45,905 nucleotides of DNA from the IMG/VR virus record IMGVR_UViG_643348547_000010, positions 1 through 45,905 of that record. One strand, written 5' to 3'. The notes beneath the pieces were generated by a model, which did no database searches, was not told the origin of the DNA, and saw only the letters and a list, made by a program, of their open reading frames with translations. The position numbers and the translations under genes are program-made. Shown piece after piece: positions 1 to 40,770 of the stretch (its first letter is position 1; each line of letters begins with the position of its first letter). The stretch is from a virus (lineage: Duplodnaviria; Heunggongvirae; Uroviricota; Caudoviricetes).

Positions 1-367
1 ATGAAGAAAGTTTTTCTTTGCGCCATCTTAGCCTCCTTAAGCTATCCGGCTATCGCCTCATCATTGCAGGATCAACTCTCTGCTGTCGCAGAAGCGGAAC
101 AGCAAGGTAAAAATGAAGAGCAAAGGCAGCATGACGAATGGGTCGCGGAGCGCAACAGGGAAATCCAGCAAGAGAAGCAACGTCGCGCAAACGCCCAGGC
201 CGCCGCTAACAAAAGAGCGGCAACGGCAGCGGTAAATAAGAAAGCTCGTCAGGATAAACTGGACGCCGAAGCCTCTGCGGATAAAAAACGCGATCAAAGT
301 TATGAAGATGAGCTACGCAGCTTAGAGATTCAGAAACAAAAACTGGCGCTGGCGAAAGAAGAAGCCC
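1..367 (+). pseudogene. Secreted coiled-coil protein gene, 5' portion, interrupted by IS629 (continues at 3948)
   Basis: ORF starts at 1 with signal-peptide-like N-terminus (MKKVFLCAILASLSYPAIA), Lys/Glu/Gln-rich body; reading frame runs into IS629 left end at 368. Confidence 0.6.
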
Positions 368-421
368 TGAACCGCCCCGGGAATCCTGGAGACTAAACTT
401 CCTGAGAAAGAGGTAAACAGG

Positions 422-748
422 ATGACTAAAAATACTCGTTTTTCCCCCGAAGTCCGTCAACGGGCAGTCCGTATGGTTCTGGAAAGTCAGGGCGAATATG
501 ACTCACAATGGGCGACAATTTGTTCCATTGCCCCAAAGATTGGCTGTACACCGGAGACTCTGCGTGTCTGGGTACGCCAGCATGAGCGGGATACCGGAGG
601 CGGTGATGGCGGGCTCACCACCGCTGAACGTCAGCGTCTGAAAGAGCTGGAACGTGAAAATCGTGAACTGCGCCGCAGTAACGATATCCTTCGCCAGGCT
701 TCCGCTTATTTTGCGAAGGCGGAGTTCGACCGCCTCTGGAAAAAGTGA
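422..748 (+). CDS. IS629 OrfA (IS3-family transposase N-terminal HTH protein)
   Basis: 108-aa [25 protein letters not shown]..., near-identical to orfA of the copies at 14287 and 15893-16219. Confidence 0.9.
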
Positions 749-1162
749 TGCCACTGCTGGATAAGCTGCGTAAGCTGTACGGGGTCGGACCGGTATGCAG
801 TGAACTACATATTGCCCCGTCAACGTATTACCACTGTCAGCAACAGCGACATCATCCTGATAAACGCAGTGCCCGTGCGCAGCGCGATGACTGGCTGAAG
901 AAAGAGATACTGCGCGTATACGATGGGAATCATCAGGTATACGGTGTGCGTAAAGTCTGGCGTCAGTTGTTACGGGAAGGAATCAGGGTAGCCAGATGTA
1001 CAGTGGCGCGCCTCATGGCGGTTATGGGACTTGCCGGTGTTCTCCGGGGTAAAAAGGTCCGCACTACCGTCAGCCGGAAAGCCGTTGCCGCAGGCGACCG
1101 CGTAAACCGTCAGTTTGTGGCAGAACGTCCTGACCAGTTGTGGGTGGCTGATTTTACTTACG
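745..1162 (+). pseudogene. IS629 orfB, 5' part, interrupted by group II intron
   Basis: Translation identical to intact OrfB (14610-15500) up to ...QLWVADFTY, then diverges exactly at the intron 5' end. Confidence 0.8.
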
Positions 1163-1818
1163 GTGTGCCCGGAGTTCAGGGCGGGCATGGATGCTTAAAT
1201 GAACCGCGAGTCTGTCTGGAATATTGAACCGGTAACTCACGATGAGAAACCCAACAATCCCACCGGGTGTGACGGTGGAGAACCTGAGCGGCAGTGACCT
1301 GCGGCATGCCCGCAGGGTGATGTAACCCGCTGACAACGGGGATTGAGGCGAGATCACTAAGCCGAGATGATCCTCAAGGTTAAGTACTGAAAGGCTGAAG
1401 AACATGAACCCGTTAATCCGCCTCTGTGGGTTGAAAACGTCACCACGGCCTACGTGATCTGACAGGCCGTGCAGGAGGAACTGGCAGTGATACGTAAGCA
1501 CTGCCGGTCGAAGGTGTTTTGACATGTATGCGAAACACCGGGGCAGCAGCGTCTATCACGCTTGCGTTGCTGACTTCTGCCAACTTGCGGCAAGCAAGGA
1601 TAAAGAGTGCGACGGGCAGCCTCCTCAGTATGCCTGAGTCCAGGCAGGTAAACCGGGGAAGGTCAGCGACGGATGTTAAGGGGGCATGGCTCCGATGACG
1701 CGCTGGCTGGCGGAGCTTCCGTAGTAGTCCGCGATGGGGAAAGCCCATTACATGGCGAAGGGAAGCAGTTTGAATGTGTTTGCGACGTGAATTAACTGAC
1801 CTAACGAGGTGAAGACCT

Positions 1819-3342
1819 TTGATAATCAGCGAAATGCAACGCAAGCTTGCCACATGGGCAGCCACCGATCCGTCCCTACGGATTCAACGGCTGCTGCGTC
1901 TAATAACACAACCAGAATGGCTGGCTGAAGCGGCGCGGATCACGCTTTCATCAAAGGGGGCCCATACCCCCGGCGTTGATGGCGTGAACAAAACAATGCT
2001 ACAGGCCAGACTGGCTGTTGAGCTGCAAATCCTCAGGGATGAATTACTCTCAGGCCACTACCAGCCCTTGCCCGCCAGACGGGTTTACATCCCTAAAAGC
2101 AACGGCAAACTGCGACCACTGGGTATCCCCGCGTTGCGGGATCGTATTGTTCAGCGGGCCATGCTGATGGCGATGGAGCCGATATGGGAGAGTGATTTTC
2201 ATACGCTCTCATATGGCTTCCGGCCTGAGCGCAGTGTCCACCACGCGATCCGCACGGTGAAATTACAGCTCACAGACTGCGGTGAAACCCGGGGACGCTG
2301 GGTGATTGAAGGCGACCTGTCCAGTTACTTCGACACCGTACATCATCGACTGCTGATGAAGGCTGTACGCCGCAGGATCAGTGACGCACGTTTCATGACT
2401 CTGCTGTGGAAAACCATCAAGGCGGGACATATCGATGTCGGTCTCTTTCGGGCGGCCAGTGAAGGTGTGCCACAGGGCGGTGTTATATCGCCGCTATTAT
2501 CGAACATCATGCTGAATGAGTTCGATCAATACCTGCATGAGCGCTACCTGAGCGGGAAAGCCAGAAAAGATCGGTGGTACTGGAATAACAGTATCCAACG
2601 GGGCCGAAGTACGGCGGTCAGAGAAAACTGGCAGTGGAAACCCGCGGTGGCGTACTGCCGCTATGCCGATGATTTTGTCCTCATCGTCAAAGGCACCAAA
2701 GCACAGGCGGAAGCCATCAGGGAGGAGTGTCGGGGTGTGCTCGAAGGCAGTCTGAAACTCAGGCTGAACATGGATAAGACTAAAATCACCCATGTTAATG
2801 ACGGCTTTATCTTTCTGGGGCACAGGATCATTCGCAAACGCAGTCGTTATGGCGAGATGCGAGTGGTCTCAACGATCCCGCAGGAGAAAGCCAGAAACTT
2901 CGCCGCATCGCTGACAGCACTGTTATCAGGCAACTACAGTGAAAGCAAAGTCGATATGGCTGAACAACTCAACCGAAAACTGAAAGGCTGGGCCATGTTC
3001 TATCAGTTCGTTGATTTTAAGGCCAAAGTCTTCAGTTATATCGACCGTGTCGTGTTCTGGAAGCTGGCTCACTGGCTGGCCCGCAAATACCGTACAGGTA
3101 TCGCTTCCCTGATGAGGTGGTGGTGTAAATCACCGAAACCGGGTCAGAGCAAAACGTGGGTTTTATTTGGTAAAACCAATCACGGCAAGCTCAGCGGCGA
3201 AATACTGTACCGGTTGGTGGGGCAAGGCAAGAAGCTGTTCCGCTGGCGGCTACCCGAAGGTAATCCCTATCTGAGGACGGAGACCAGAAACACGTATACA
3301 TCGCGCTTTACAGAAGTGGCAATGGCGTTCGCCAGCATTTAA
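1819..3342 (+). CDS. Group II intron-encoded reverse transcriptase/maturase
   Basis: 507-aa ORF with RT palm motifs (FDTVHHRLL, YADDFVLIV) and C-terminal maturase-like region; no HNH/En motifs visible. Confidence 0.9.
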   Translation: MIISEMQRKLATWAATDPSLRIQRLLRLITQPEWLAEAARITLSSKGAHTPGVDGVNKTMLQARLAVELQILRDELLSGHYQPLPARRVYIPKSNGKLRPLGIPALRDRIVQRAMLMAMEPIWESDFHTLSYGFRPERSVHHAIRTVKLQLTDCGETRGRWVIEGDLSSYFDTVHHRLLMKAVRRRISDARFMTLLWKTIKAGHIDVGLFRAASEGVPQGGVISPLLSNIMLNEFDQYLHERYLSGKARKDRWYWNNSIQRGRSTAVRENWQWKPAVAYCRYADDFVLIVKGTKAQAEAIREECRGVLEGSLKLRLNMDKTKITHVNDGFIFLGHRIIRKRSRYGEMRVVSTIPQEKARNFAASLTALLSGNYSESKVDMAEQLNRKLKGWAMFYQFVDFKAKVFSYIDRVVFWKLAHWLARKYRTGIASLMRWWCKSPKPGQSKTWVLFGKTNHGKLSGEILYRLVGQGKKLFRWRLPEGNPYLRTETRNTYTSRFTEVAMAFASI

Positions 3343-3347
3343 ATGGA

Positions 3348-3381
3348 GAGCCGGATGCGCTGAAAGGTGCACGTCCGGTTC
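3348..3381 (+). ncRNA. Group II intron domain V
   Basis: GAGCCGGATGCGCTGAAAGGTGCACGTCCGGTTC: 34-nt hairpin with AGC triad and GNRA-type loop, located just after the IEP stop and followed by a short domain VI-like hairpin. Confidence 0.8.
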
Positions 3382-3404
3382 GGGGAGGAGAGGCAGGGAA
3401 ATAG

Positions 3405-3905
<501 letters not shown>

Positions 3906-6422: not shown

Positions 6423-6449
6423 CCCGCAATATTTTGCGGGCTTTTTTTT
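6423..6449. terminator. GC hairpin plus T8 run abutting the tailspike stop codon
   Basis: CCCGCAATATTTTGCGGGCTTTTTTTT; the U-run is on the plus strand, so it is a better plus-strand than minus-strand terminator. Confidence 0.4.
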
Positions 6450-9400
6450 AACGTTCTTCCAGAGACTGAACCCGCTCTTTTATCTTATCCATTTCTCTGC
6501 GCTGCCATGCTGCCTCGATATAGAATAAGAGATCAGGTCTGACCCCCCATCTAGATCCTGCTGGCGTTATTTCAACGCGCTCAATGATGTCTTCTATTAC
6601 CATCACTGGATTATCATCCTCATCAACAATGATGCTCCCGTCATTATCAGTCAGCGGCATTTCCCTTTGGCCAGTAATGACGTCATCATATACTGCGGGA
6701 TAATCGTCATAGCAAAGAAAGGCATAGCGGCATGTTGTGCTTTCTTCTTCCATGAGTCCGTGAGAAATAAGAACATCACGAAGTTGCTGCGCGATTACAC
6801 CATGATGTATCCTCGCCCCTTCTTCCCCCTTTATAGCGACAGCGTTCAGCCATTTATAAGCGATATACCTGACGTCACCCCAGGCATCCAGCAATGCTTC
6901 GTCAGGAGAGACCGGCTCTGTCTTTAATGTTCCGTCACTGGTAACCACAGGATTGGAGCCAAGATAAACTGTCGAGAACCTGTTTCCCGGACCACCAAGA
7001 GCATTTACATTATCAAGATAAGGTTTAACATCTCCGTTCTCAAAAAGATGTTCGAGTGCGTTATATACCGCGCGACGTGGAGTACTGCTTCCGGAACCAT
7101 GCAACGTTATCATTGCACCATCTGCTGAAGACGTTGTTTCACCGCCGCTAACGATTAATCTCTGAGCGGTAACATCATCAGACGGTACTTTCTTCGCAAT
7201 AATGGCGTAATTACCCTCAAGTTTGACTTCCGCGCGAACTTGTCCTGATGTACCTGCATGGACAGTCAGTGACTGGACGGCAACATCATCTGTGAAATCA
7301 ACGGGTACAGGAACCGTCCTCACGCCTGACGTCGACATAAAAGTAGGAAGCGTTCTGTTAGGAGTGGCTCCGTAGACAAAATCCCTTGAAACAAATTCTT
7401 CCTGTTTAATTTTCACCCTGAAACAATACAAATCAGCCGGGTGACCATCGTGAACATAAGGATATTTTCTGTTGTTATCCCCTATGCTCCATGGGTTTAG
7501 AAAGTCTTCCCCACCGAAAATGTAGTACAGCCAGTTGTCTTTGATACAAACTGAACCAACACCAACCGCAGAGTTAACTATTCCGCCCTGATAAATCTGA
7601 TCAGTAACATTAACCCACTCTACATTATCCAGACTCCACTCATTGACGTTAACTCTGGTCATAAATGTTCTTGGATAATTTCCTGCATAACGGTTATCAG
7701 GTTCTCCTCCTTCCCACTCACCAAATGCGCGCTCACTGCCAAAAATAATCAGCTCATCGCCAACTTTGGCAAAAGGAAGGTTTGAGTGATGAACATTATT
7801 TGGGAAGCGAAGAGAATTCCATGATGTACCTAAATCAGAGCTTCTGTGCAATGAACTACCGGGTTGAGTACTTAATGTCCCCCTGGTCGTCAGATACAGA
7901 ATGCCATCATAATATTTTACACATGGCTCAGATGCATTCGCCTCATATTCTACAGGTATGCGTCTGCGAACAAAGCTACCAGGAGAACCGAAAGCATCAG
8001 AGAAATAGAGTATCCCAAGCTCGCGTGGACCAATATCACCATTATGGTAGCCAACAGCAAAACTGTTATCGCTAATCGTCGCAAAACTGTGAATCTCAGT
8101 AACAGGAGTGCTTCCGTCAACAAAAGAAGGAATAGTTCCAAGACTGGTTTTTCTCCATGGTGACGAGTGAAATGATGTGCCAAAACTCCAGTATCTACCC
8201 TCGTTATTCTGATCCACATCCTGGGTATTTTGCGTCGTAACTGTAAAGGTATTTTTATCAATAACAGTAGTCACCGTCATATTCCCGGTAACACCTGTAA
8301 CACCAGAGTTTGAGAAGTTGACAAAATCACCAGCAAATAATCCGTGATCAGTAATGCGAATATAAGCGACTTGCTGATTTGCTGCTTTCGTTATACCACC
8401 ATAAACGCGAAGGCTGCGACTCATTGGGCGATCCCACAACTCTGCAACCTGCAGTTTATTTCCTCTCACGGTCCGCGTCTCAATTACAGCAAAAAGGCGA
8501 TTTCTGACAACCCCCATACTCATGCAGTGATAGTTAACTGTGGGATAGTTTTCATGTAAATCTGTAAGCCATTCCGGCGTTGTCCAGGTCTTCCCGTCAT
8601 CTCCTGAGCGAACCCATGCAACATGGAGGTTATTTACACCATGGCGGTCTCCAGCCATAAAAGGCGCATAGATGACATTGTCATATACAAACGTTTTATC
8701 CTGCGTCCAGGCGTTGTACCACGGTGTATCTGTAATTTTAAATAACTCTCCCTGGATAAAATCTTCAGAAGCATAAAAAAGAGGCTGGCCCGGTATTCTC
8801 TCAAATAAAAAACGAGCATTTTTAAATCGACTGACATCCGGAAGAGTTGATACTTTAAAAGTAAGCCCTAATCCGTCAATTTTATAACCTGGAGATGAGG
8901 CTTCAAGGCACGCGCTTATTGCAGTGGAATCGTCATTTATACCATCACCAACAGCTCCAAAATCTTTGGGGCTAATAGCATCACGCATTTTATCCTGGAA
9001 CGTTCGGTACACAGCCCCAGAACCATACTGAATAAACCAACCAAAACCACCAACAACTCCGGCGATTGCAGCATCGACATAATTACGCATTGAGCGATTA
9101 TTTACAGCGTCCTGCTCAAATGATGGATCTGCAAGGTTAGAAATTTTGTTTTGCTTTGCATCGTAATATTTTGCAAGCAAAGATGGTTTCATCAATGCAC
9201 GTCTGAACCACCCAAAACATTGCTGGATCAGCATCGTCAGGTAGTCAAAGGCATCTTCATGCACTTCGGGGAAAAATTTTCCCTGATTGCGAAGGTCTGT
9301 GTCCTGCACTACATCAAGCACACGATCTATCGTAATTCGCCATCCAGTAGCAAGCGGAGACGGAAGAACCACAGAACCGCCACTATAAGTGCCCGCCACA

Positions 9401-9567
9401 GTTACCGTATAACCGGTATCCAGGACCAATTCTGTTACGTTCCCGTTCAGGTCAGACACCTGAACAACCAGGTCTGATTTTCTGAAAATTCGAAAAGTAT
9501 ACGGAAACGATGTCGTAACGCCGTTACCGGTGTATTCGTTGTGGTCAACTTCGGTTGAGACCGTCAT
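6448..9567 (-). CDS. Tail fibre/tailspike: T7 gp17-like N-terminal adaptor, glycosidase-like body with Asp-box motifs, C-terminal intramolecular chaperone (peptidase S74-like)
   Basis: N-terminus MTVSTEVDHNEYTGNGVTTSFPYTF... and NLADPSFEQDAVNNRS resemble tail-fibre N-domains; DFGAVGDGINDDSTAI beta-helix-type motif; Asp-boxes SGDDGKTW and SSDLGTSW; C-terminal ...SDGTLKTEP...HHGVIAQQL... chaperone-like. Confidence 0.8.
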   Translation of the reverse strand: MTVSTEVDHNEYTGNGVTTSFPYTFRIFRKSDLVVQVSDLNGNVTELVLDTGYTVTVAGTYSGGSVVLPSPLATGWRITIDRVLDVVQDTDLRNQGKFFPEVHEDAFDYLTMLIQQCFGWFRRALMKPSLLAKYYDAKQNKISNLADPSFEQDAVNNRSMRNYVDAAIAGVVGGFGWFIQYGSGAVYRTFQDKMRDAISPKDFGAVGDGINDDSTAISACLEASSPGYKIDGLGLTFKVSTLPDVSRFKNARFLFERIPGQPLFYASEDFIQGELFKITDTPWYNAWTQDKTFVYDNVIYAPFMAGDRHGVNNLHVAWVRSGDDGKTWTTPEWLTDLHENYPTVNYHCMSMGVVRNRLFAVIETRTVRGNKLQVAELWDRPMSRSLRVYGGITKAANQQVAYIRITDHGLFAGDFVNFSNSGVTGVTGNMTVTTVIDKNTFTVTTQNTQDVDQNNEGRYWSFGTSFHSSPWRKTSLGTIPSFVDGSTPVTEIHSFATISDNSFAVGYHNGDIGPRELGILYFSDAFGSPGSFVRRRIPVEYEANASEPCVKYYDGILYLTTRGTLSTQPGSSLHRSSDLGTSWNSLRFPNNVHHSNLPFAKVGDELIIFGSERAFGEWEGGEPDNRYAGNYPRTFMTRVNVNEWSLDNVEWVNVTDQIYQGGIVNSAVGVGSVCIKDNWLYYIFGGEDFLNPWSIGDNNRKYPYVHDGHPADLYCFRVKIKQEEFVSRDFVYGATPNRTLPTFMSTSGVRTVPVPVDFTDDVAVQSLTVHAGTSGQVRAEVKLEGNYAIIAKKVPSDDVTAQRLIVSGGETTSSADGAMITLHGSGSSTPRRAVYNALEHLFENGDVKPYLDNVNALGGPGNRFSTVYLGSNPVVTSDGTLKTEPVSPDEALLDAWGDVRYIAYKWLNAVAIKGEEGARIHHGVIAQQLRDVLISHGLMEEESTTCRYAFLCYDDYPAVYDDVITGQREMPLTDNDGSIIVDEDDNPVMVIEDIIERVEITPAGSRWGVRPDLLFYIEAAWQRREMDKIKERVQSLEER

Positions 9568-9670
9568 GTTAAATCTCCAGATAGTCGCAGCACCCGTTGC
9601 GCCGCATATCTGGTTATTCTATTACCTGAAAAACCATATATGGATAAAAAGACTATAAATACCAATAGAT

Positions 9671-9687
9671 ATTACCTTTCGGGTAAT
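9671..9687. promoter_or_regulatory. Operator-like 17-bp palindrome (site A)
   Basis: ATTACCTTTCGGGTAAT, intergenic, upstream of 9763 gene. Confidence 0.5.
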
Positions 9688-9762
9688 TTGCAAAACGTGC
9701 TGGATAGCAAACAAATTATTTGTTACTGTATAAACATACAGTTATTGCATGGAGAAGATAAG

Positions 9763-10020
9763 ATGCAGCAGTATCACTATCCACTGGAAGACGGATTTAC
9801 CGAAAGGATTCACACGCCGGGAGGCGTCAGGTCACTGGTGGAGGGATCGCACTTGATGAAATTACTCCGGGATCTCGATAAGGATGGATTTAATGTCGAT
9901 GGCCCACTTGCCGAACTGACTGCACTGATTAACTACGTCACCAGCTCACAGATGTCTATGCAGGATCTGCAAACACATCTCGACTATTGTGCCGAACAAT
10001 TACGAAAACAAACCAGATAA
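9763..10020 (+). CDS. Small protein paralogous to the C-terminal domain of the antirepressor at 10338-10994
   Basis: Start at internal ATG with GGAGAAG RBS; about 45 percent identity by eye to the last 80 aa of the AntA-like protein (shared ...IH-P-GV..L.E.S.LM.LL..L..DG..V.G..AELT....Y...LQTH..Y). Confidence 0.5.
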   Translation: MQQYHYPLEDGFTERIHTPGGVRSLVEGSHLMKLLRDLDKDGFNVDGPLAELTALINYVTSSQMSMQDLQTHLDYCAEQLRKQTR

Positions 10021-10023
10021 GGT

Positions 10024-10052
10024 TTGCAATTACCAAATAGAGTGCTTATATT
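10024..10052 (+). promoter_or_regulatory. Sigma70-like promoter TTGCAA-N17-TATATT
   Basis: Hexamers at 10024-10029 and 10047-10052; operator site B begins 27 bp after the -35 start. Confidence 0.45.
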
Positions 10053-10067
10053 TACCTTTGCGGTAAA
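10051..10067. promoter_or_regulatory. Operator-like 17-bp palindrome (site B)
   Basis: TTTACCTTTGCGGTAAA overlapping the -10/+1 of the promoter above. Confidence 0.5.
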
Positions 10068-10180
10068 TTTACATCGCACTCCTCTTGTGCCATAGTAATC
10101 GGGCACTGGCAAAATCCAGTGCCGGGATTGGTCTCCCGGATTACTAAGTGGCGCATACCACGCCAGACGTGGTTTTTTTA
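10059..10180 (+). ncRNA. Candidate structured leader or small RNA upstream of antirepressor gene
   Basis: About 120 nt between promoter/operator and an intrinsic terminator; contains stem-loops CACTGG...CCAGTG and CCGGGA...TCCCGG; no convincing ORF (track ORF 10119-10310 starts at GTG with no RBS). Confidence 0.3.
10158..10180 (+). terminator. Intrinsic terminator
   Basis: CCACGCCAGACGTGG followed by T7. Confidence 0.6.
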
Positions 10181-10337
10181 TGCGTATAGCACAGTCATGC
10201 CAGAATTATGGTGGGCTGAATGGGGGTCCGAAAGGACGCCGGTACCACTTAGGCCGGTAAGACCAACTCCGTTCAGTTCACCACCATCTGATTGGTCTCA
10301 GCGGTGGTGATGTAATTCGCTAAGTGGAGACGCCATC

Positions 10338-10994
10338 ATGAACGCTCAACTCATCCCCGTATTCAACGGCACTATCGCCAACGAAACCACTCTTCTCGTT
10401 AATGCTCGCGATTTACATACTTTTCTTGGGGTAGGTAAACGCTTTGCATCGTGGATTACAGAACGCATTGCTGAATATGGTTTCGTTGAAAATCAGGACT
10501 ATATTTTGGTTTCCCCAAATCGGGAAATCAAAGGTCGAGGAGGCGATCGCCGTAGCAAAGACTATCACCTCACCCTCGATACGGCCAAAGAAACTGCGAT
10601 GGTCGAGCGCAACGAAAAAGGCCGCCAGATACGCCGATACTTCATTGAATGCGAGAAACGTTTAAGACAACAAGAAACAAAGGTGGAGAAGGTCTTGTCA
10701 GGCTTCATGCCCGCCATTATGGAGGCGATCAAACTGGAAGACAAAAAAGAATACAGTGCCCCACTGAAGCCAGGCTACCGTAGCCTGATTCATTCGCCGT
10801 CTGGTGTTCTCGGCCTGACGGAGAACTCACTGCTGATGAATCTGCTGAACCAGTTGCAGGAAGACGGGCACGATGTATCGGGCGCGGCGGCGGAACTGAC
10901 CACCATGTTCTGCTACATCGTCGGTGTGAGCAAATGCCTGCGTGATATCCAGACGCACGCGGAGTACATCAACGACAAGGCAGGATTCTTCTGA
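10338..10994 (+). CDS. Antirepressor, AntA-like N-terminal domain plus C-terminal domain
   Basis: N-terminal DLHTFLGVGKRFASWITERIAEYGFVENQDYIL pattern typical of AntA/AntB-type antirepressors; RBS GGAG upstream. Confidence 0.7.
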   Translation: MNAQLIPVFNGTIANETTLLVNARDLHTFLGVGKRFASWITERIAEYGFVENQDYILVSPNREIKGRGGDRRSKDYHLTLDTAKETAMVERNEKGRQIRRYFIECEKRLRQQETKVEKVLSGFMPAIMEAIKLEDKKEYSAPLKPGYRSLIHSPSGVLGLTENSLLMNLLNQLQEDGHDVSGAAAELTTMFCYIVGVSKCLRDIQTHAEYINDKAGFF

Positions 10995-11039
10995 CAGAAC
11001 GGCGGCACAGGGATGTGCCTTTAAATAATTCTGTACAGA

Positions 11040-11068
11040 TTGCAGACTGGGGGTGAATAGCGTACTAT
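11040..11068 (+). promoter_or_regulatory. Sigma70-like promoter TTGCAG-N17-TACTAT
   Basis: Hexamers at 11040-11045 and 11063-11068; site C begins 27 bp after the -35 start. Confidence 0.4.
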
Positions 11069-11083
11069 TACCTCACGGGTGAT
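11067..11083. promoter_or_regulatory. Operator-like 17-bp palindrome (site C)
   Basis: ATTACCTCACGGGTGAT. Confidence 0.45.
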
Positions 11084-11119
11084 CCATAGCGATTAGGCAC
11101 CGATACAGGAGGAGCCCAC

Positions 11120-11152
11120 ATGAGAAAATTTGACGAGTACGAAGGCGTTTAA
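11120..11152 (+). other. Mini-ORF (10 codons, MRKFDEYEGV) with strong Shine-Dalgarno, between two operator sites
   Basis: AGGAGGA at 11107-11113, ATG at 11120, stop TAA at 11150-11152. Confidence 0.25.
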
Positions 11153-11167
11153 CATTCGGATAGTTCA

Positions 11168-11184
11168 TTTACCCTAATGGTAAA
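11168..11184. promoter_or_regulatory. Operator-like 17-bp palindrome (site D)
   Basis: TTTACCCTAATGGTAAA. Confidence 0.5.
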
Positions 11185-11223
11185 TCCCGCTTAAAGAAGC
11201 ATCTATATATTATGAGGTGATGT

Positions 11224-11859
11224 ATGCCACAACAACTGCTGAATCCGGCAAAGGTAACTGAGGTTTTCGCTCATCTGAACGAAACTCCAGACAACCGCGC
11301 CCTGTATTCAGAGTTAGTGAACGGCAACGATGTCACATCTGATGTCAAAGGCGTTTCTCTGGCTCCTGGATACCGCGTTGTCCGTGTAGACGATCGTAAG
11401 AAAGGCGAGATTCCACAGGCGCACTTTGAACTGTCATTGATAAATGACCTCACCGAAGAGGTAGTGTATTACAATCGTGTCATTATCCAGCCTGACAGCT
11501 ATCTTAACTGCCGTCCTGTCACGCAGATATTGGTATGGAGAACCCAGAAGCCTAAGCATCGTGCTGTGCTTCATGATTTCGCCGGCATCATCTTCATGAA
11601 CTACCTCTTGGAACGGTACGATATCATCGTGTCAGATCGCAACCAGACTCATGAAGGCATGTCGTTCTGGCAGGCTCGCATGTATGACGCACTGGAACTT
11701 GGCCTCCACCTCTATGGTTACGACATGATGACATGCGAGCTGATAGAGATGAATAACGAGGAAGAGCTTGAGAAAGGTGAAACCTGGTTGTGGGGTGATG
11801 CGGAAAACTTCCAAAACAGATTGGCCATAATTTCAAAGCATAAGCTGCCAATAAAATAG
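11224..11859 (+). CDS. Hypothetical protein (accessory gene in antirepressor island)
   Basis: 211-aa ORF with RBS (GAGGTGA), followed by a strong terminator; no family recognised. Confidence 0.6.
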   Translation: MPQQLLNPAKVTEVFAHLNETPDNRALYSELVNGNDVTSDVKGVSLAPGYRVVRVDDRKKGEIPQAHFELSLINDLTEEVVYYNRVIIQPDSYLNCRPVTQILVWRTQKPKHRAVLHDFAGIIFMNYLLERYDIIVSDRNQTHEGMSFWQARMYDALELGLHLYGYDMMTCELIEMNNEEELEKGETWLWGDAENFQNRLAIISKHKLPIK

Positions 11860-11865
11860 TTCTTT

Positions 11866-11888
11866 AAGCCCGCGGCGCGGGCTTTTTT
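11866..11888 (+). terminator. Intrinsic terminator
   Basis: AAGCCCGCGGCGCGGGCTTTTTT. Confidence 0.7.
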
Positions 11889-11961
11889 GTGTCTGCGGAT
11901 TCCCGCCCGGGTGGCGGTGGCATTCGTTAAAAACAAGGCCGCGAAAGCGGCCTGTGACATG

Positions 11962-14286: not shown

Positions 14287-14613
14287 ATGACTAAAAATAC
14301 TCGTTTTTCCCCCGAAGTCCGTCAACGGGCAGTCCGTATGGTTCTGGAAAGTCAGAGCGAATATGACTCACAATGGGCGACAATTTGTTCCATTGCTCCA
14401 AAGATTGGCTGTACGCCGGAGACTCTGCGTGTCTGGGTTCGCCAGCATGAGCGGGATACCGGGGGCGGTGATGGAGGGCTCACCACCGCTGAACGTCAGC
14501 GTCTGAAAGAGCTGGAACGTGAAAATCGTGAACTGCGCCGCAGTAACGATATCCTTCGCCAGGCTTCCGCTTATTTTGCGAAGGCGGAGTTCGACCGCCT
14601 CTGGAAAAAATGA
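14287..14613 (+). CDS. IS629 OrfA
   Basis: 108-aa ORF, same protein as 422-748 apart from one residue. Confidence 0.9.
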
Positions 14614-15500
14614 TGCCACTGCTGGATAAGCTGCGTGAGCAGTACGGGGTCGGACCGCTATGCAGCGAACTGCATATTGCCCCGTCAACGTATTACCACT
14701 GTCAGCAACAGCGACATCATCCGGATAAACGCAGTGCCCGTGCGCAGCGCGATGACTGGCTGAAGAAAGAGATACAGCGCGTATACGATGAAAATCACAA
14801 GGTATACGGTGTGCGTAAAGTCTGGCGTCAGTTGTTACGGGAAGGTATCAGAGTGGCCAGATGCACTGTGGCACGTCTCATGGCGGTTATGGGACTTGCC
14901 GGTGTTCTCCGGGGTAAAAAGGTCCGTACGACCATCAGCCGGAAAGCCGTTGCCGCAGGCGACCGCGTAAACCGTCAGTTCGTGGCAGAACGACCTGACC
15001 AGCTGTGGGTGGCTGATTTTACTTACGTCAGCACATGGCGGGGCTTCGTCTATGTGGCGTTCATCATTGATGTGTTTGCCGGATACATCGTGGGGTGGCG
15101 GGTCTCATCGTCCATGGAAACGACATTCGTGCTGGATGCACTGGAGCAGGCGTTATGGGCCCGTCGACCGTCCGGCACGGTCCATCACAGTGATAAAGGT
15201 TCTCAGTATGTATCGCTGGCCTACACACAGCGGCTTAAGGAAGCCGGATTACTGGCATCAACAGGAAGTACAGGCGACTCGTATGACAACGCGATGGCGG
15301 AGAGCATCAATGGTCTTTACAAAGCGGAGGTAATACACCGTAAGAGCTGGAAAAACCGTGCAGAAGTGGAACTGGCCACACTCACGTGGGTGGACTGGTA
15401 TAACAATCGACGATTGCTGGAAAGGCTGGGCCATACTCCTCCGGCAGAAGCAGAAAAAGCTTATTATGCTTCCATCGGAAACGATGATCTGGCAGCCTGA
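14610..15500 (+). CDS. IS629 OrfB (DDE transposase catalytic part)
   Basis: 296-aa ORF overlapping orfA in the -1 frame as in IS3-family elements. Confidence 0.9.
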
Positions 15501-15542: not shown

Positions 15543-15896
15543 GTCGCCTGCGGCAACGGCTTTCCGGCTGATGGTCGTACGGACCTTTTTACCCCGGAGA
15601 ACACCGGCAAGTCCCATAACCGCCATGAGACGTGCCACAGTGCATCTGGCCACTCTGATACCTTCCCGTAACAACTGACGCCAGACTTTACGCACACCGT
15701 ATACCTTGTGATTTTCATCGTATACGCGCTGTATCTCTTTCTTCAGCCAGTCATCGCGCTGCGCACGGGCACTGCGTTTATCCGGATGATGTCGCTGTTG
15801 CTGACAGTGGTAATACGTTGACGGGGCAATATGCAGTTCGCTGCATAGCGGTCCGACCCCGTACTGCTCACGCAGCTTATCCAGCAGTGGCATCAT
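15543..15896 (-). pseudogene. IS629 orfB, truncated
   Basis: Encodes first 117 aa of OrfB then runs into the neighbouring IS end. Confidence 0.8.
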
Positions 15897-16219
15897 TTTT
15901 TCCAGAGGCGGTCGAACTCCGCCTTCGCAAAATAAGCGGAAGCCTGGCGAAGGATATCGTTACTGCGGCGCAGTTCACGATTTTCACGTTCCAGCTCTTT
16001 CAGACGCTGACGTTCAGCGGTGGTGAGCCCTCCATCACCGCCCCCGGTATCCCGCTCATGCTGGCGAACCCAGACACGCAGAGTCTCCGGCGTACAGCCA
16101 GTCTTTGGAGCAATGGAACAAATTGTCGCCCATTGTGAGTCATATTCGCTCTGACTTTCCAGAACCATACGGACTGCCCGTTGACGGACTTCGGGGGAAA
16201 AACGAGTATTTTTAGTCAT
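15893..16219 (-). CDS. IS629 OrfA (in truncated copy)
   Basis: 108-aa ORF matching the other orfA copies. Confidence 0.85.
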
Positions 16220-31014: not shown

Positions 31015-31091
31015 GTGGCATTAGCTCACTTGGACAGAGCAACCGCCTTCTAAGCGGTTGGTCGCAGGTTCGAATCCTGCATGCCACGCCA
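31015..31091 (+). tRNA. tRNA-Arg (anticodon UCU), phage-encoded
   Basis: Cloverleaf by hand: acceptor GTGGCAT/ATGCCAC, D-arm GCTC/GAGC, anticodon stem ACCGC/GCGGT with loop CTTCTAA, T-arm GCAGG-TTCGAAT-CCTGC, discriminator G, CCA; sequence differs from host argU. Confidence 0.85.
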
Positions 31092-33296: not shown

Positions 33297-33889
33297 TGAT
33301 TACCATCCTGACGTTCTTTGAGTCGCTTCCTGGCTGCTGCTATGCGATCAGCAATTGTCACATTCACATTAACATCCAGACGTTCTTTGAACGCGTTGAC
33401 ATCAACATGCTTACCAATCAGCTCAAGGTTCTTCACCTTGTCAGGCCATTTAATTTTTTTGAGGATTGTCTCTATCGAATCCTCGTTCATGTTCATGATG
33501 GTCGATGACAGATCAAAGCCACTAAGCGTAGTGCGCCAGATTTTCGGCCACTCACGGATTGGTTTAAGGCTCCCATCGTCGTTGAGGATGTCGATCACGT
33601 CCATCTGGTCGATCTCCACCAGGCGCATGAGAACGTAATCAGCACTGACGCGCATTCGTTTGTTGCGCTCCTCCATCAACTCGGCAATCCGTTTTTGAAT
33701 GCGTTCATCGCGCATCATGACACTGGCTTTAACTGCCGCTGTATTTGGGGAGAATCCTGCGTTAATCGCTGCCTGAGTCTGGTTTTCAGGCGTTTTGATG
33801 TATGACTGGCAATAAGCCTCCTGCATTGCTGTTAGTGGCTTAAATTGCGTTGATTTGCGTTTATAGGTTTTAGGTTCAGCAGGCATCAT
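33293..33889 (-). CDS. Terminase small subunit
   Basis: Motif QEAYCQSYIKTPENQTQAAINAGFS typical of terminase small subunits; start moved to ATG at 33889 because a terminator hairpin lies inside the longer track ORF. Confidence 0.7.
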   Translation of the reverse strand: MMPAEPKTYKRKSTQFKPLTAMQEAYCQSYIKTPENQTQAAINAGFSPNTAAVKASVMMRDERIQKRIAELMEERNKRMRVSADYVLMRLVEIDQMDVIDILNDDGSLKPIREWPKIWRTTLSGFDLSSTIMNMNEDSIETILKKIKWPDKVKNLELIGKHVDVNAFKERLDVNVNVTIADRIAAARKRLKERQDGNQ

Positions 33890-33905
33890 AACCACCGTGG
33901 TAATA

Positions 33906-33922
33906 GTTACCGTTGTGGTAAT
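33906..33922. promoter_or_regulatory. Operator-like 17-bp palindrome (site N) upstream of terS
   Basis: GTTACCGTTGTGGTAAT, preceded by GGTAATAGTTACC. Confidence 0.45.
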
Positions 33923-33932
33923 AGTACCATGC

Positions 33933-33958
33933 AAAATAAAGCCGCCATAGTTGGCGGC
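33933..33958 (-). terminator. Intrinsic terminator upstream of terS
   Basis: Minus-strand hairpin GCCGCCAACTATGGCGGC followed by TTTATTTT. Confidence 0.5.
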
Positions 33959-34007
33959 AGTATTCAAAACCCATCAAATTCATCATGCATAATCTACTCG
34001 TGACATG

Positions 34008-40185: not shown

Positions 40186-40770
40186 ATGAAAAGTATCCAG
40201 GACGTCCGCAGGCAAAATCTCAACGACTTGATCGACCGTGAATTCAATGGTGTTCAGACGCGGATGGCAGAAAAACTTGGAACTCAGGCAAATCTGGTAA
40301 ACCGCTGGGCTCTTGGCAAGAAGGTTATCGGCGACCAGGTTGCACGAAAAATTGAAGCTGCCGCCAATAAACCCCGTAACTGGCTTGATATTGATCGTTC
40401 GCTTTCTCAGGAGGGTTTTCAGCCTGTCGGCCCGAGCGATATAGGTCAGCTGGCGGCTCACAACCTGGAACGCTGGATGAGCGAAAGCCGCGACCTTTCA
40501 ACGCAGGGAAAACTTCACCGCGCATCCGGCGTCGCCCAGGTGACAATCAGTCGCCTGTTAAACAATGAGGTCAGCGTTTCCATTTCCACCCTGGAGAATG
40601 TTGCATCCGCATTCGGGCGTCACGGATATGAACTACTGATTCACCCGCACGACCCTGCGACTATCAACTATGACCGCTCGCGCTACGCATTGTTACCCGA
40701 AACCGAGAAAGCAAAGATCGAAAGTTACATTGAATTTGTCATCAACCAGAACGAAAAAAACAAACAATAA
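40186..40770 (+). CDS. Immunity repressor candidate: double-HTH DNA-binding protein without peptidase domain
   Basis: 194 aa; two Cro/C1-type HTH segments (QTRMAEKLGTQANLVNRWALGKK and VAQVTISRLLNNEVSVSISTLENVASAF); no Ser-Lys S24 motifs; own terminator. Confidence 0.65.
   Translation: MKSIQDVRRQNLNDLIDREFNGVQTRMAEKLGTQANLVNRWALGKKVIGDQVARKIEAAANKPRNWLDIDRSLSQEGFQPVGPSDIGQLAAHNLERWMSESRDLSTQGKLHRASGVAQVTISRLLNNEVSVSISTLENVASAFGRHGYELLIHPHDPATINYDRSRYALLPETEKAKIESYIEFVINQNEKNKQ

What the first reader, a model, noticed from the sequence alone, without database searches (positions are those of the whole stretch)
11107..11152. Ten-codon mini-ORF with ideal Shine-Dalgarno between two operator sites
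AGGAGGA (11107-11113) is followed 6 nt later by ATG AGA AAA TTT GAC GAG TAC GAA GGC GTT TAA. It sits between operator-like sites C and D, downstream of a promoter and upstream of the 211-aa gene. A leader peptide here could couple translation to expression of the downstream gene, or it could be a microprotein.
Basis: seen in the sequence. Interest (0 to 1): 0.4.

Follow-up and report, generated by a model that had tools for sequence, protein, structure and literature searches.

The report
Conserved phage decapeptide gene, orphaned here
The ten-codon reading frame is a real, unannotated peptide gene that phages from E. coli to Pseudomonas keep in front of a transcription terminator and a membrane protein of unknown function (DUF4760), but in this prophage recombination has cut it off from both and joined it to an unrelated gene.

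Summary
In detail: AGGAGGA at 11107-11113, ATG at 11120, TAA at 11150-11152, encoding MRKFDEYEGV, between two copies of a palindrome that occurs 14 times in the window.

A strong ribosome-binding site plus ATG is not above chance here. Comparison shows the frame is real. Nearly every DUF4760 gene examined has a 10-11-codon ORF upstream, in E. coli, Klebsiella, Serratia, Pantoea, Erwinia, Yersinia and P2-like phages; a Pseudomonas phage has 21 codons. All end in [DE]-E-[YF]-[DE]-[GL]-[VFI]-TAA.

Variation is concentrated at third codon positions and the flanks cannot be aligned. The native order is ribosome-binding site, ORF, a 13-27 nt spacer, a GC-rich terminator, then DUF4760.

The window is a chimera. 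Homology to that cassette ends about 14 nt after the stop. Operator D and a 211-aa gene with a GNAT-like fold follow, and that gene lacks the ORF in other lineages.

- **Best reading (inferred):** the peptide is the product, made in excess of DUF4760, as with mccA and mccB.
- **Main rival:** a cis-acting stalling leader.

Coupling to the 211-aa gene is unsupported. I found no publication or annotation of it.

The parts
11003..11019 (+). Hairpin GGCACA-GGGA-TGTGCC followed by TTTAAATAATT, just after the ant stop codon. It is a possible weak terminator of the ant transcript.
   Evidence: Sequence. Invariant in all aligned relatives. Not flagged by the terminator scan.
11040..11068 (+). Inferred sigma-70 promoter: TTGCAG at 11040-11045, 17-nt spacer, TACTAT at 11063-11068. 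It would start transcription at about 11075.
   Evidence: Read; only 7 of 12 consensus matches and not listed. The orthologous Klebsiella promoter TTGACG-16-TAAGAT is listed. Relatives with a 7-nt deletion use TGTACA with an 18-nt spacer. Inferred, not shown.
11067..11083 (.). Operator-like palindrome C (ATTACCTCACGGGTGAT), overlapping the -10 hexamer and the inferred start site.
   Evidence: One of 14 TTACC-N5-GGTAA sites in the window (0.9 expected).
11084..11119 (+). 5' leader of the mini-ORF, including the Shine-Dalgarno AGGAGGA at 11107-11113. It is predicted to be unstructured.
   Evidence: z = +0.88, ribosome-binding site unpaired in the centroid structure. Identical in 44 of 51 E. coli genomes that carry it. 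A Shine-Dalgarno of the GGAG/GAGG type is kept in the distinct lineages listed; one subgroup (L092/L130) has only AAGGAA or AAGGGA.
11120..11152 (+). Ten-codon ORF encoding MRKFDEYEGV with a TAA stop. It belongs to the micro-ORF family associated with DUF4760 genes.
   Evidence: 23 peptide variants sharing the end [DE]E[YF][DE][GL][VFI]. Column entropy is 0.25 bit at codon positions 1 and 2, 1.11 bit at position 3, and 1.4-1.7 bit in the flanks. TAA is invariant.
11153..11166 (+). The remaining part of the DUF4760-cassette spacer. Homology to that cassette ends here, so the recombination junction lies at about 11165-11168. The native terminator and DUF4760 gene are missing.
   Evidence: Alignments and the downstream contexts listed.
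11167..11185 (.). Operator-like palindrome D (ATTTACCCTAATGGTAAAT). It corresponds to the single operator of the 211-aa cassette but has no usable -10 hexamer of its own here.
   Evidence: In L008 and L009 the equivalent operator overlaps a TAATAT -10 hexamer.
11214..11859 (+). Shine-Dalgarno GAGGTG (11214-11219) and the 211-aa gene (11224-11859). The protein has a GNAT-like fold and belongs to phrog_1349, function unknown. It is an unrelated cargo gene now transcribed through the mini-ORF leader.
11866..11884 (+). Intrinsic terminator that closes the transcription unit.
   Evidence: 8 pairs, 6 of them G-C, followed by TTTTTGTG.

Best explanation
The mini-ORF is a genuine, translated decapeptide gene.

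**Native setting.** It is the first part of a mobile phage accessory module: a repressor-controlled promoter, a strong ribosome-binding site, a 10-11-codon ORF ending ...[FY]-D-E-[YF]-[DE]-G-[VF]-TAA, a spacer of about 18 nt, a GC-rich intrinsic terminator, and then the ribosome-binding site and gene of DUF4760. DUF4760 is a membrane-anchored, all-helical protein.

**Most likely mechanism (inferred).** The peptide itself is the functional product.
- Most transcripts would end at the terminator, giving a short, heavily translated peptide mRNA.
- A minority would read through to make a little DUF4760.
- The terminator would thus fix a high peptide-to-DUF4760 ratio. This is the logic shown experimentally for mccA-terminator-mccB.
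- The spacer would keep terminating ribosomes clear of the hairpin.
- The peptide would then act on or with DUF4760, as ligand, inhibitor or substrate.

**In this window.** Recombination about 14 nt after the stop codon replaced the terminator and DUF4760 with operator D and an unrelated GNAT-like gene. The peptide gene is now an orphan sitting in that gene's 5' leader. It is probably still translated, but nothing suggests it controls that gene.

**Shown:** coding-type conservation, the module architecture, and the chimeric junction. **Inferred:** translation, the promoter, the ratio-setting role of the terminator, and any peptide-DUF4760 interaction.
For: **Coding signature**
- Across 13 ORF variants all 9 third-codon positions vary, against 3 of 9 first and 3 of 9 second positions. 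pS is 0.82 and pN is 0.126.
- Across 35 distinct sequence contexts, column entropy is 0.25 bit at positions 1 and 2, 1.11 bit at position 3, 1.4-1.7 bit in the flanks, and 0 bit at the stop codon.
- The other two reading frames are full of stop codons.

**Link to DUF4760**
- The ORF lies upstream of DUF4760 homologs down to 30% identity.
- It occurs in four phage backbones and one chromosomal site.
- 29 of 31 distinct upstream regions have it.

**Terminator**
- It is the only conserved RNA structure. 3 of its 8 pairs show compensatory changes.
- The scan flags it in the P2-like and Klebsiella loci.
- The DUF4760 ribosome-binding site starts within about 10 nt of the U run, leaving no room for a promoter.

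**Spacer and translation signals**
- The spacer is 13-27 nt, median 18, while its sequence is free to vary.
- The ribosome-binding site is unstructured.
- A strong Shine-Dalgarno is kept in nearly all lineages.

**Chimera**
- Searches show the junction and the absence of the ORF from other 211-aa genes.
- There is no DUF4760 in the window.

**Precedent**
- PMC4231749 describes a 7-codon gene followed by an intergenic intrinsic terminator. It gives an abundant short transcript and a minor read-through transcript.
Against: - There is no direct evidence of translation or of any peptide-DUF4760 contact.
- Free cytoplasmic decapeptides are usually short-lived.
- Conservation concentrated at the C-terminus and the stop codon, with a variable N-terminal length (8 to at least 21 residues before the motif), is also typical of nascent-chain stalling peptides.
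- The near-constant distance from stop codon to hairpin could reflect ribosome-polymerase geometry rather than mere avoidance.
- The E. coli-type hairpin has a short U run (TTTTCATG) and was not flagged by the terminator scan. Termination there may be weak.
- The only non-synonymous change in the E. coli group (Y7H, L040) lies in the 211-aa context. That fits a peptide that is useless without DUF4760, but it is a single observation.
Confidence: 0.45

Rival explanations
1. Cis-acting regulatory leader peptide. The conserved C-terminal residues of the nascent chain would stall the ribosome at or near the UAA stop codon, perhaps in response to a small molecule or a phage-infection state. The stalled ribosome would change read-through of the terminator or translation of DUF4760. 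In the window the sensor would be left without its terminator.
For: - Conservation is strongest at the last six residues and the invariant TAA. The N-terminal part and the length vary.
- The spacing from stop codon to terminator is narrow, 16-20 nt in about 24 of 26 lineages.
- DUF4760 cannot be transcribed without terminator read-through.
- There is a precedent: MsrDL, a 6-codon leader that stalls at UAA and blocks an intrinsic terminator (PMC10314930).
Against: [quoted passage not shown] Here the stem starts 13-27 nt after the stop. By general knowledge of ribosome footprints, that is beyond the roughly 9-12 nt a ribosome at the stop codon protects.
- RNAalifold finds no conserved alternative (antiterminator) structure.
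- Pairing between the spacer and the downstream ribosome-binding site is no better than in shuffled sequences.
- The peptide resembles no stalling motif known to me.
Confidence: 0.3
2. One reading: translation of the mini-ORF is coupled to, and controls, expression of the 211-aa gene at 11224-11859 in this prophage.
For: - The ORF lies in the only plausible 5' leader of that gene, because operator D has no usable -10 hexamer of its own.
- The arrangement is kept in 10 E. coli records and 9 viral contigs, with three upstream promoter variants.
Against: - The same gene is expressed without the ORF in L008 and L009, and in Dickeya, Serratia and Photorhabdus.
- The stop codon lies 71 nt upstream of the 211-aa start.
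- No structure links the two. The leader folds no better than shuffled sequences.
- All copies with this arrangement are near-identical, so their persistence says little.
Confidence: 0.1
3. The segment encodes a non-coding small RNA, a counterpart of IsrJ, which lies downstream of the antirepressor gene in Gifsy-1. On this view the ORF is incidental.
For: - It has the same position as IsrJ: downstream of an ant-type gene that follows isrK/C4, with its own promoter and, in the native context, an intrinsic terminator.
- The 22 nt upstream of the Shine-Dalgarno are also invariant within the E. coli group.
Against: - There is no Rfam match, even at E = 10.
- IsrJ has no Shine-Dalgarno or ORF and no sequence similarity.
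- The 3-nt periodicity of variation and the conserved peptide, set among unalignable flanks, cannot be explained by an RNA-level constraint.
- The leader is unstructured.
Confidence: 0.03
4. In this particular window the ORF is an inert relic. It was carried along by recombination, has not yet been mutated, and has no current role whatever its function in the DUF4760 cassette.
For: - Its native partners are absent.
- The chimeric copies are all nearly identical, so they are young.
- The one non-synonymous variant in the E. coli group is in this context (L040).
Against: - The ORF, its Shine-Dalgarno and its stop codon are intact in all 9 viral and 10 E. coli copies of the chimera.
- If the peptide acts in trans, an orphan copy could still act on a DUF4760 protein encoded elsewhere or by an incoming phage.
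Confidence: 0.12

Closest known systems
mccA - intrinsic terminator - mccB (microcin C operon; PMC4231749)
   Same: - A very short ORF (7 codons there, 10 here) with its own ribosome-binding site.
- An intrinsic terminator in the intergenic region directly before the next gene.
- There it is shown to give an abundant short peptide mRNA and a minor read-through transcript, which sets the peptide-to-enzyme ratio.
   Different: - The downstream protein is DUF4760, a membrane-anchored helical protein, not an MccB-type adenylating enzyme.
- The peptide ends in V, F or I rather than Asn or Asp.
- The upstream sequences that attenuate the mcc terminator have no detectable counterpart here.
- In this window the terminator and the partner gene are missing altogether.
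MsrDL/msrD and related stalling-leader attenuators (PMC10314930)
   Same: A short leader ORF with a UAA stop lies upstream of an intrinsic terminator that gates the downstream gene. Neither system has a classical antiterminator hairpin.
   Different: - There the stalled ribosome physically covers the 5' half of the hairpin. Here the hairpin starts 13-27 nt after the stop codon.
- No inducer is known.
- The peptide sequences are unrelated.
IsrJ sRNA of Gifsy-1 (Rfam RF01393; PMC2330248, PMC4825925)
   Same: It holds the same genomic position: a short unit with its own promoter and terminator, immediately downstream of the antirepressor gene of an isrK/C4 (P1 immI-like) locus.
   Different: IsrJ is non-coding, with no Shine-Dalgarno or ORF in L177 33480-33406. 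It does not match this sequence with the Rfam model.
Type III toxin-antitoxin layout (ToxIN: antitoxin repeats - terminator - toxin gene); from my own knowledge
   Same: A small upstream product is separated from a downstream effector gene by a terminator that keeps the small product in excess. Both are carried by mobile elements involved in phage conflicts.
   Different: The antitoxin there is a repeated RNA, not a translated peptide. Nothing shows that DUF4760 is toxic. This is an analogy only.
P1 immI / dispersed C1 operators; from my own knowledge, plus Rfam C4 and c4-a1b1 hits
   Same: The surrounding locus (c4-a1b1 targets, C4 RNA, then ant) and the repressor palindrome scattered over many promoters resemble P1's C1-controlled immI operon.
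   Different: This concerns the context, not the mini-ORF. To my knowledge P1 immI has no such decapeptide gene.

Membership tests
DUF4760-associated micro-ORF family (defined here) | Shine-Dalgarno 5-9 nt before an ATG that opens a 10-11-codon ORF | tested here: met
   AGGAGGA, 6 nt, then ATG; 10 sense codons. The same layout is seen in the other lineages examined, with a weaker purine-rich site in L092/L130.
DUF4760-associated micro-ORF family (defined here) | C-terminal motif [DE]-E-[YF]-[DE]-[GL]-[VFI] followed by TAA | tested here: met
   The window has D-E-Y-E-G-V-TAA. 35 of 35 distinct contexts use TAA.
DUF4760-associated micro-ORF family (defined here) | GC-rich intrinsic terminator 13-27 nt after the stop codon | tested here: not met
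   In the window the sequence after 11165 is operator D, a 7-bp AU-rich palindrome, with no U run. The terminator is present in the DUF4760 contexts.
DUF4760-associated micro-ORF family (defined here) | DUF4760 gene immediately downstream | tested here: not met
   The downstream gene is the unrelated 211-aa protein (hhalign probability 0.1%). tblastn finds no DUF4760 anywhere in the window.
Stalling-leader transcription attenuator of the MsrDL type | The footprint of the ribosome stalled on the leader overlaps the 5' arm of the terminator | tested here: not met
   The distance from stop codon to stem is 13-27 nt, median 18, in 26 lineages. The requirement is taken from PMC10314930.
Stalling-leader transcription attenuator of the MsrDL type | Ligand- or condition-dependent ribosome stalling on the leader | not testable with these tools
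   This needs toeprinting or ribosome profiling.
Classical amino-acid attenuation leaders (trp, his, leu type) | A run of regulatory codons, and mutually exclusive antiterminator and terminator hairpins | tested here: not met
   No repeated codon in MRKFDEYEGV. RNAalifold finds only the terminator. The weak Rfam Trp_leader and Leu_leader hits lie at 11783-11890, on the 211-aa gene's terminator, below threshold.
Microcin C-type precursor gene (mccA) | Downstream MccB-like adenylating enzyme, and a precursor peptide ending in Asn or Asp | tested here: not met
   The downstream protein matches only Pfam DUF4760. Its closest structural matches are helical EP domains. The peptide ends in V, F or I.
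IsrJ sRNA (Rfam RF01393) | Match to the Rfam covariance model | tested here: not met
   No hit at E <= 10 in the window at 9550-11950 or in L003. The model does find IsrJ in Gifsy-1 at 100 bits.

The most novel reading that the evidence does not exclude
The decapeptide is a labile, trans-acting partner of DUF4760, either an inhibitor or a ligand. DUF4760 is a membrane-anchored phage protein whose cytoplasmic domain resembles the EP domain of the plant immune proteins EDS1, PAD4 and SAG101. Together they would form a two-component phage conflict module (defence, anti-defence or exclusion) with one of the smallest known protein components. Orphan peptide genes like the one in this window would then work as stand-alone 'immunity' against DUF4760 proteins of other phages.
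Probability: 0.2. Interest if true: 0.8.

Novelty: new member of a known kind. Interest (0 to 1): 0.6.

Why it matters
- **Missed by pipelines.** Ten-codon genes fall below every annotation threshold. None of the annotated records examined carries a feature here.
- **Unusually deep conservation.** This ORF is kept at the amino-acid level from E. coli phages to a Pseudomonas phage. Over the same distance its partner protein has drifted to 30% identity.
- **A handle on DUF4760.** It gives a concrete experimental route into an uncharacterised protein family that sits in accessory or hotspot positions of several temperate phage types.
- **A testable mechanistic question.** Either answer would be informative: a new nascent-peptide sensor, or a new very small functional peptide.
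- **Practical consequence for this window.** The element should not be read as a regulator of the gene it now precedes.

Tried and rejected
1. **Known RNA family.** The Rfam gathering scan and the E-value scans gave no hit on the module.
2. **IsrJ homology.** I fetched Gifsy-1. IsrJ has no ORF and no similarity to this sequence.
3. **Antiterminator or other conserved RNA structure.** RNAalifold on 13 lineages shows only the terminator. The window leader folds worse than shuffled sequences.
4. **Long-range pairing between the post-stop spacer and the DUF4760 ribosome-binding site.** Single-sequence folds suggested it. RNAduplex against 300 shuffles per lineage gave z scores around 0 to +1, so I rejected it.
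5. **Significance of the ribosome-binding site plus ATG alone.** Not above chance.
6. **Mini-ORF as a general feature of the 211-aa family.** Absent in Dickeya, Serratia, Photorhabdus and two E. coli prophages.
7. **A second family member in the window.** MHDEFDGF* at 33990-33964 on the minus strand turned out to be a deletion remnant of a 70-aa gene related to T4 uvsY.-1.
   - The intact gene is present in strain 90-3040, the remnant is frameshifted in IHE3034, and it is absent in E2348/69.
   - T4-type relatives do not share the C-terminal motif.
   - The idea of a shared C-terminal binding motif is therefore not supported.
8. **Scans of the species-representative genome collection.** Both found nothing.
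9. **PADLOC defence models.** No hit for DUF4760 or the 211-aa protein.
10. **Literature.** No paper contains the peptide sequence. The only paper that mentions DUF4760 does so once; I did not read it.

Full report
**1. The observation**

The sequence is as described. AGGAGGA lies at 11107-11113, followed by six bases (GCCCAC). The ORF is ATG AGA AAA TTT GAC GAG TAC GAA GGC GTT TAA at 11120-11152, encoding MRKFDEYEGV.

It lies between two palindromes:
- ATTACCTCACGGGTGAT at 11067-11083 (site C);
- ATTTACCCTAATGGTAAAT at 11167-11185 (site D).

Allowing one mismatch, the core TTACC-N5-GGTAA occurs 14 times in the window against 0.9 expected. Two pairs of sites flank a 194-aa double helix-turn-helix gene at 40186-40770. 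I infer that this palindrome is the prophage repressor's operator, scattered over many promoters much as the C1 operators are in P1.

A strong Shine-Dalgarno plus ATG is not in itself above chance. There are 3 such pairs in the window against 1.5 +/- 1.3 simulated.

**2. Context**

The window is a prophage of the epsilon15/phiV10 type (Uetakevirus). The phage hits are TL-2011b and phiv142-3.

Next to the tailspike gene (6448-9567, minus strand) lies a locus that resembles P1 immI:
- operator A, followed by an 85-aa gene homologous to the C-terminal domain of Ant;
- operator B, followed by the c4-a1b1 targets, isrK and C4 RNA (Rfam);
- ant at 10338-10994, with an AntA domain;
- a hairpin after the ant stop codon;
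- an inferred promoter, TTGCAG-17-TACTAT, overlapped by operator C;
- the mini-ORF, then operator D, then the 211-aa gene and a terminator.

**3. The module is mobile and nearly invariant in E. coli**

The stretch 11076-11166 is found in 51 of 5426 complete E. coli genomes. In 44 of them it is at least 99% identical, and no record carries an annotated feature on it. It is also in 31 IMG/VR contigs and 11 metagenome contigs.

Two downstream contexts exist:
- **Majority.** The ORF is followed by ACGGGGCC-ATTA-GGCCCCGTTTTC and then a DUF4760 gene.
- **Minority, including this window.** Homology stops about 14 nt after the stop codon. Operator D and the 211-aa gene follow.

In two other E. coli prophages (L008, L009) the same 211-aa gene sits directly behind one promoter and one operator, with no mini-ORF. 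More distant members of the 211-aa family, in Dickeya, Serratia and Photorhabdus, also lack it.

The window arrangement is therefore a recombinant, with its junction at about 11165-11168. The mosaic boundaries coincide with the operators.

**4. The ORF is a conserved coding sequence**

I followed DUF4760 homologs outward through protein searches, contig look-ups and viral-contig scans.

Of 31 distinct upstream regions, 29 carry a ribosome-binding site and a short ORF of the same family. Of the other two, one has its upstream region replaced from within the terminator. The other locus does not capture the upstream region: the match starts at residue 41 and unrelated sequence precedes it.

Examples of the peptides:

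| Source | Peptide |
|---|---|
| E. coli | MRKFDEYEGV |
| Klebsiella, Serratia | MKKFDEYEGV |
| Metagenomic contigs | MEKFDEYEGV, MSKFDEYELV, MKKFFDEYELV |
| Pantoea, Erwinia | MRKFDEFEGF, MQKFDEFEGF |
| Yersinia | MKKFDEFDGF |
| P2-like and related contigs | MKKMYDEFDGF, MRKLFDEFDGF, MTQRFDEFDGF and others |
| Pseudomonas phage (DUF4760 only 30% identical) | ...VVVREEYEGI |

Evidence that the constraint is on the protein:
- Between lineages, the 5' leaders and the sequences after the stop codon cannot be aligned.
- In 13 variants every third-codon position varies, against 3 of 9 first and 3 of 9 second positions. pS is 0.82 and pN is 0.126.
- In 35 distinct contexts the mean column entropy is 0.25 bit at positions 1 and 2 and 1.11 bit at position 3. 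It is 1.4-1.7 bit in the flanks and zero at the stop codon, which is always TAA.

This is the signature of purifying selection on a protein sequence, not on an RNA.

**5. Native architecture**

RNAalifold finds one conserved structure, the terminator hairpin CGGGGC[CU]-loop-[GA]GCCCCG. Three of its eight pairs show compensatory changes.

The scan tool flags the hairpin as terminator-like in the P2-like and Klebsiella loci. It does not flag the E. coli type, whose U run is shorter.

The distance from stop codon to stem is 13-27 nt, median 18, and 16-20 nt in most lineages, while the spacer sequence is free to vary. The DUF4760 ribosome-binding site begins within about 10 nt of the U run. DUF4760 can therefore be transcribed only by read-through.

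The module occupies accessory positions in at least four phage backbones and one chromosomal site:
- after ant in epsilon15-like phages;
- after the tail genes L and K in lambda-like prophages;
- between the portal gene and the replication gene in P2-like phages;
- next to cI in a Pseudomonas phage;
- between a PTS EIIC gene and a decarboxylase gene on a chromosome.

**6. Mechanism**

Two readings fit a conserved peptide.

*(a) The peptide is the product, and the terminator fixes a high peptide-to-DUF4760 ratio.* This is the logic shown for the 7-codon mccA gene and its intergenic terminator (PMC4231749). It accounts for:
- the strong ribosome-binding site;
- the TAA stop codon;
- a spacer just long enough to keep a terminating ribosome off the hairpin;
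- the lack of any alternative RNA structure.

*(b) The nascent peptide stalls the ribosome and controls read-through, as MsrDL does* (PMC10314930). This fits the C-terminal and stop-codon conservation and the narrow spacing. [quoted passage not shown] Here the hairpin starts well beyond a ribosome positioned at the stop codon.

A third idea, that the spacer pairs with the DUF4760 ribosome-binding site, did not beat shuffled controls.

I therefore favour (a) at roughly 0.45 and (b) at 0.3. Neither is demonstrated.

**7. What this means for the window**

The ORF here is intact and has an accessible ribosome-binding site. It has lost its terminator and its DUF4760 partner, and no DUF4760 gene exists anywhere in the 45.9 kb.

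The only non-synonymous variant in the E. coli group, Y7H in L040, is in this chimeric context.

**8. Comparison with known systems, and novelty**

- The module matches no Rfam family.
- It is not IsrJ. IsrJ shares only the position downstream of the antirepressor gene.
- It is not a classical attenuator.
- No paper in the library contains the peptide sequence. The one paper that mentions DUF4760 does so only once; I did not read it.
- PADLOC has no model for DUF4760.

I file it as a new member of a known kind: a very small upstream ORF followed by an intrinsic terminator in front of a gene. The open question is whether it acts in cis or in trans.

**9. Side observations**

- The DUF4760 model (pLDDT 92) has an N-terminal membrane helix and a helical domain. 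The best structural matches to that domain are the EP domains of plant EDS1, PAD4 and SAG101.
  - Foldseek ranks the same proteins first, at probability 0.8-0.9 but a non-significant E of about 0.5.
- A second '...DEFDGF-stop' at 33990-33964 on the minus strand is a deletion remnant of a uvsY.-1-like gene. It is not a family member.

Noticed in passing
window 9672, 10052, 11068, 11169, 30678, 33889, 33907, 37730, 37792, 39731, 40068, 40116, 40828, 40890 (start positions): There are 14 copies of the palindrome TTACC-N5-GGTAA against 0.9 expected, mostly at promoter-like positions. Two pairs flank a 194-aa double helix-turn-helix gene at 40186-40770. This looks like one repressor controlling many dispersed operators, as C1 does in P1. 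The same palindrome precedes cargo genes in Klebsiella, Serratia and Dickeya relatives.
   Followed up: partly
window 11067-11185; loci L003, L006-L009: The mosaic junctions between alternative cargo cassettes (DUF4760, the 211-aa gene, YafO-type toxin, small ORFs) fall at or next to the operator palindromes. The operators may therefore serve as recombination joints.
   Followed up: partly
[not shown]
   Followed up: partly
[not shown]
   Followed up: partly
window 33990-33964 (minus strand): ATG CAT GAT GAA TTT GAT GGG TTT TGA (MHDEFDGF*), followed by a terminator-like hairpin, mimics the mini-ORF family. It is in fact the remnant of an internally deleted 70-aa gene related to T4 uvsY.-1. The gene is intact in E. 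coli 90-3040, the remnant is frameshifted in IHE3034, and it is absent in E2348/69.
   Followed up: yes
window 9763-10020 and 10338-10994: The 85-aa gene behind operator A is homologous to the C-terminal domain of the Ant antirepressor. Both match phrog_450 and phrog_15539. It is a free-standing copy of the Ant C-terminal domain, encoded next to the full-length protein.
   Followed up: no
window 10090-10288: An antisense control cassette of the P1 immI type lies upstream of ant: the c4-a1b1 targets, isrK and C4 RNA. The same cassette occurs in Gifsy-1, APSE and Stx phages.
   Followed up: partly
window 703-819, 14568-14684, 15822-15938, 3346-3432, 31015-31088: The prophage region holds three ALIL pseudoknot matches (Rfam RF01497). 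From my own knowledge these mark the frameshift site of IS3-family elements. One pair is inverted, around 14.5-16 kb. There is also a group II intron domain and a tRNA gene. I did not examine these.
   Followed up: no
window 33886-33967 (minus strand): RefSeq relatives annotate the small terminase subunit from a start equivalent to the TTG at 33967. That reading would run through a terminator-like hairpin and two operator palindromes. The ATG ATG at about 33886 looks like the more likely start.
   Followed up: no
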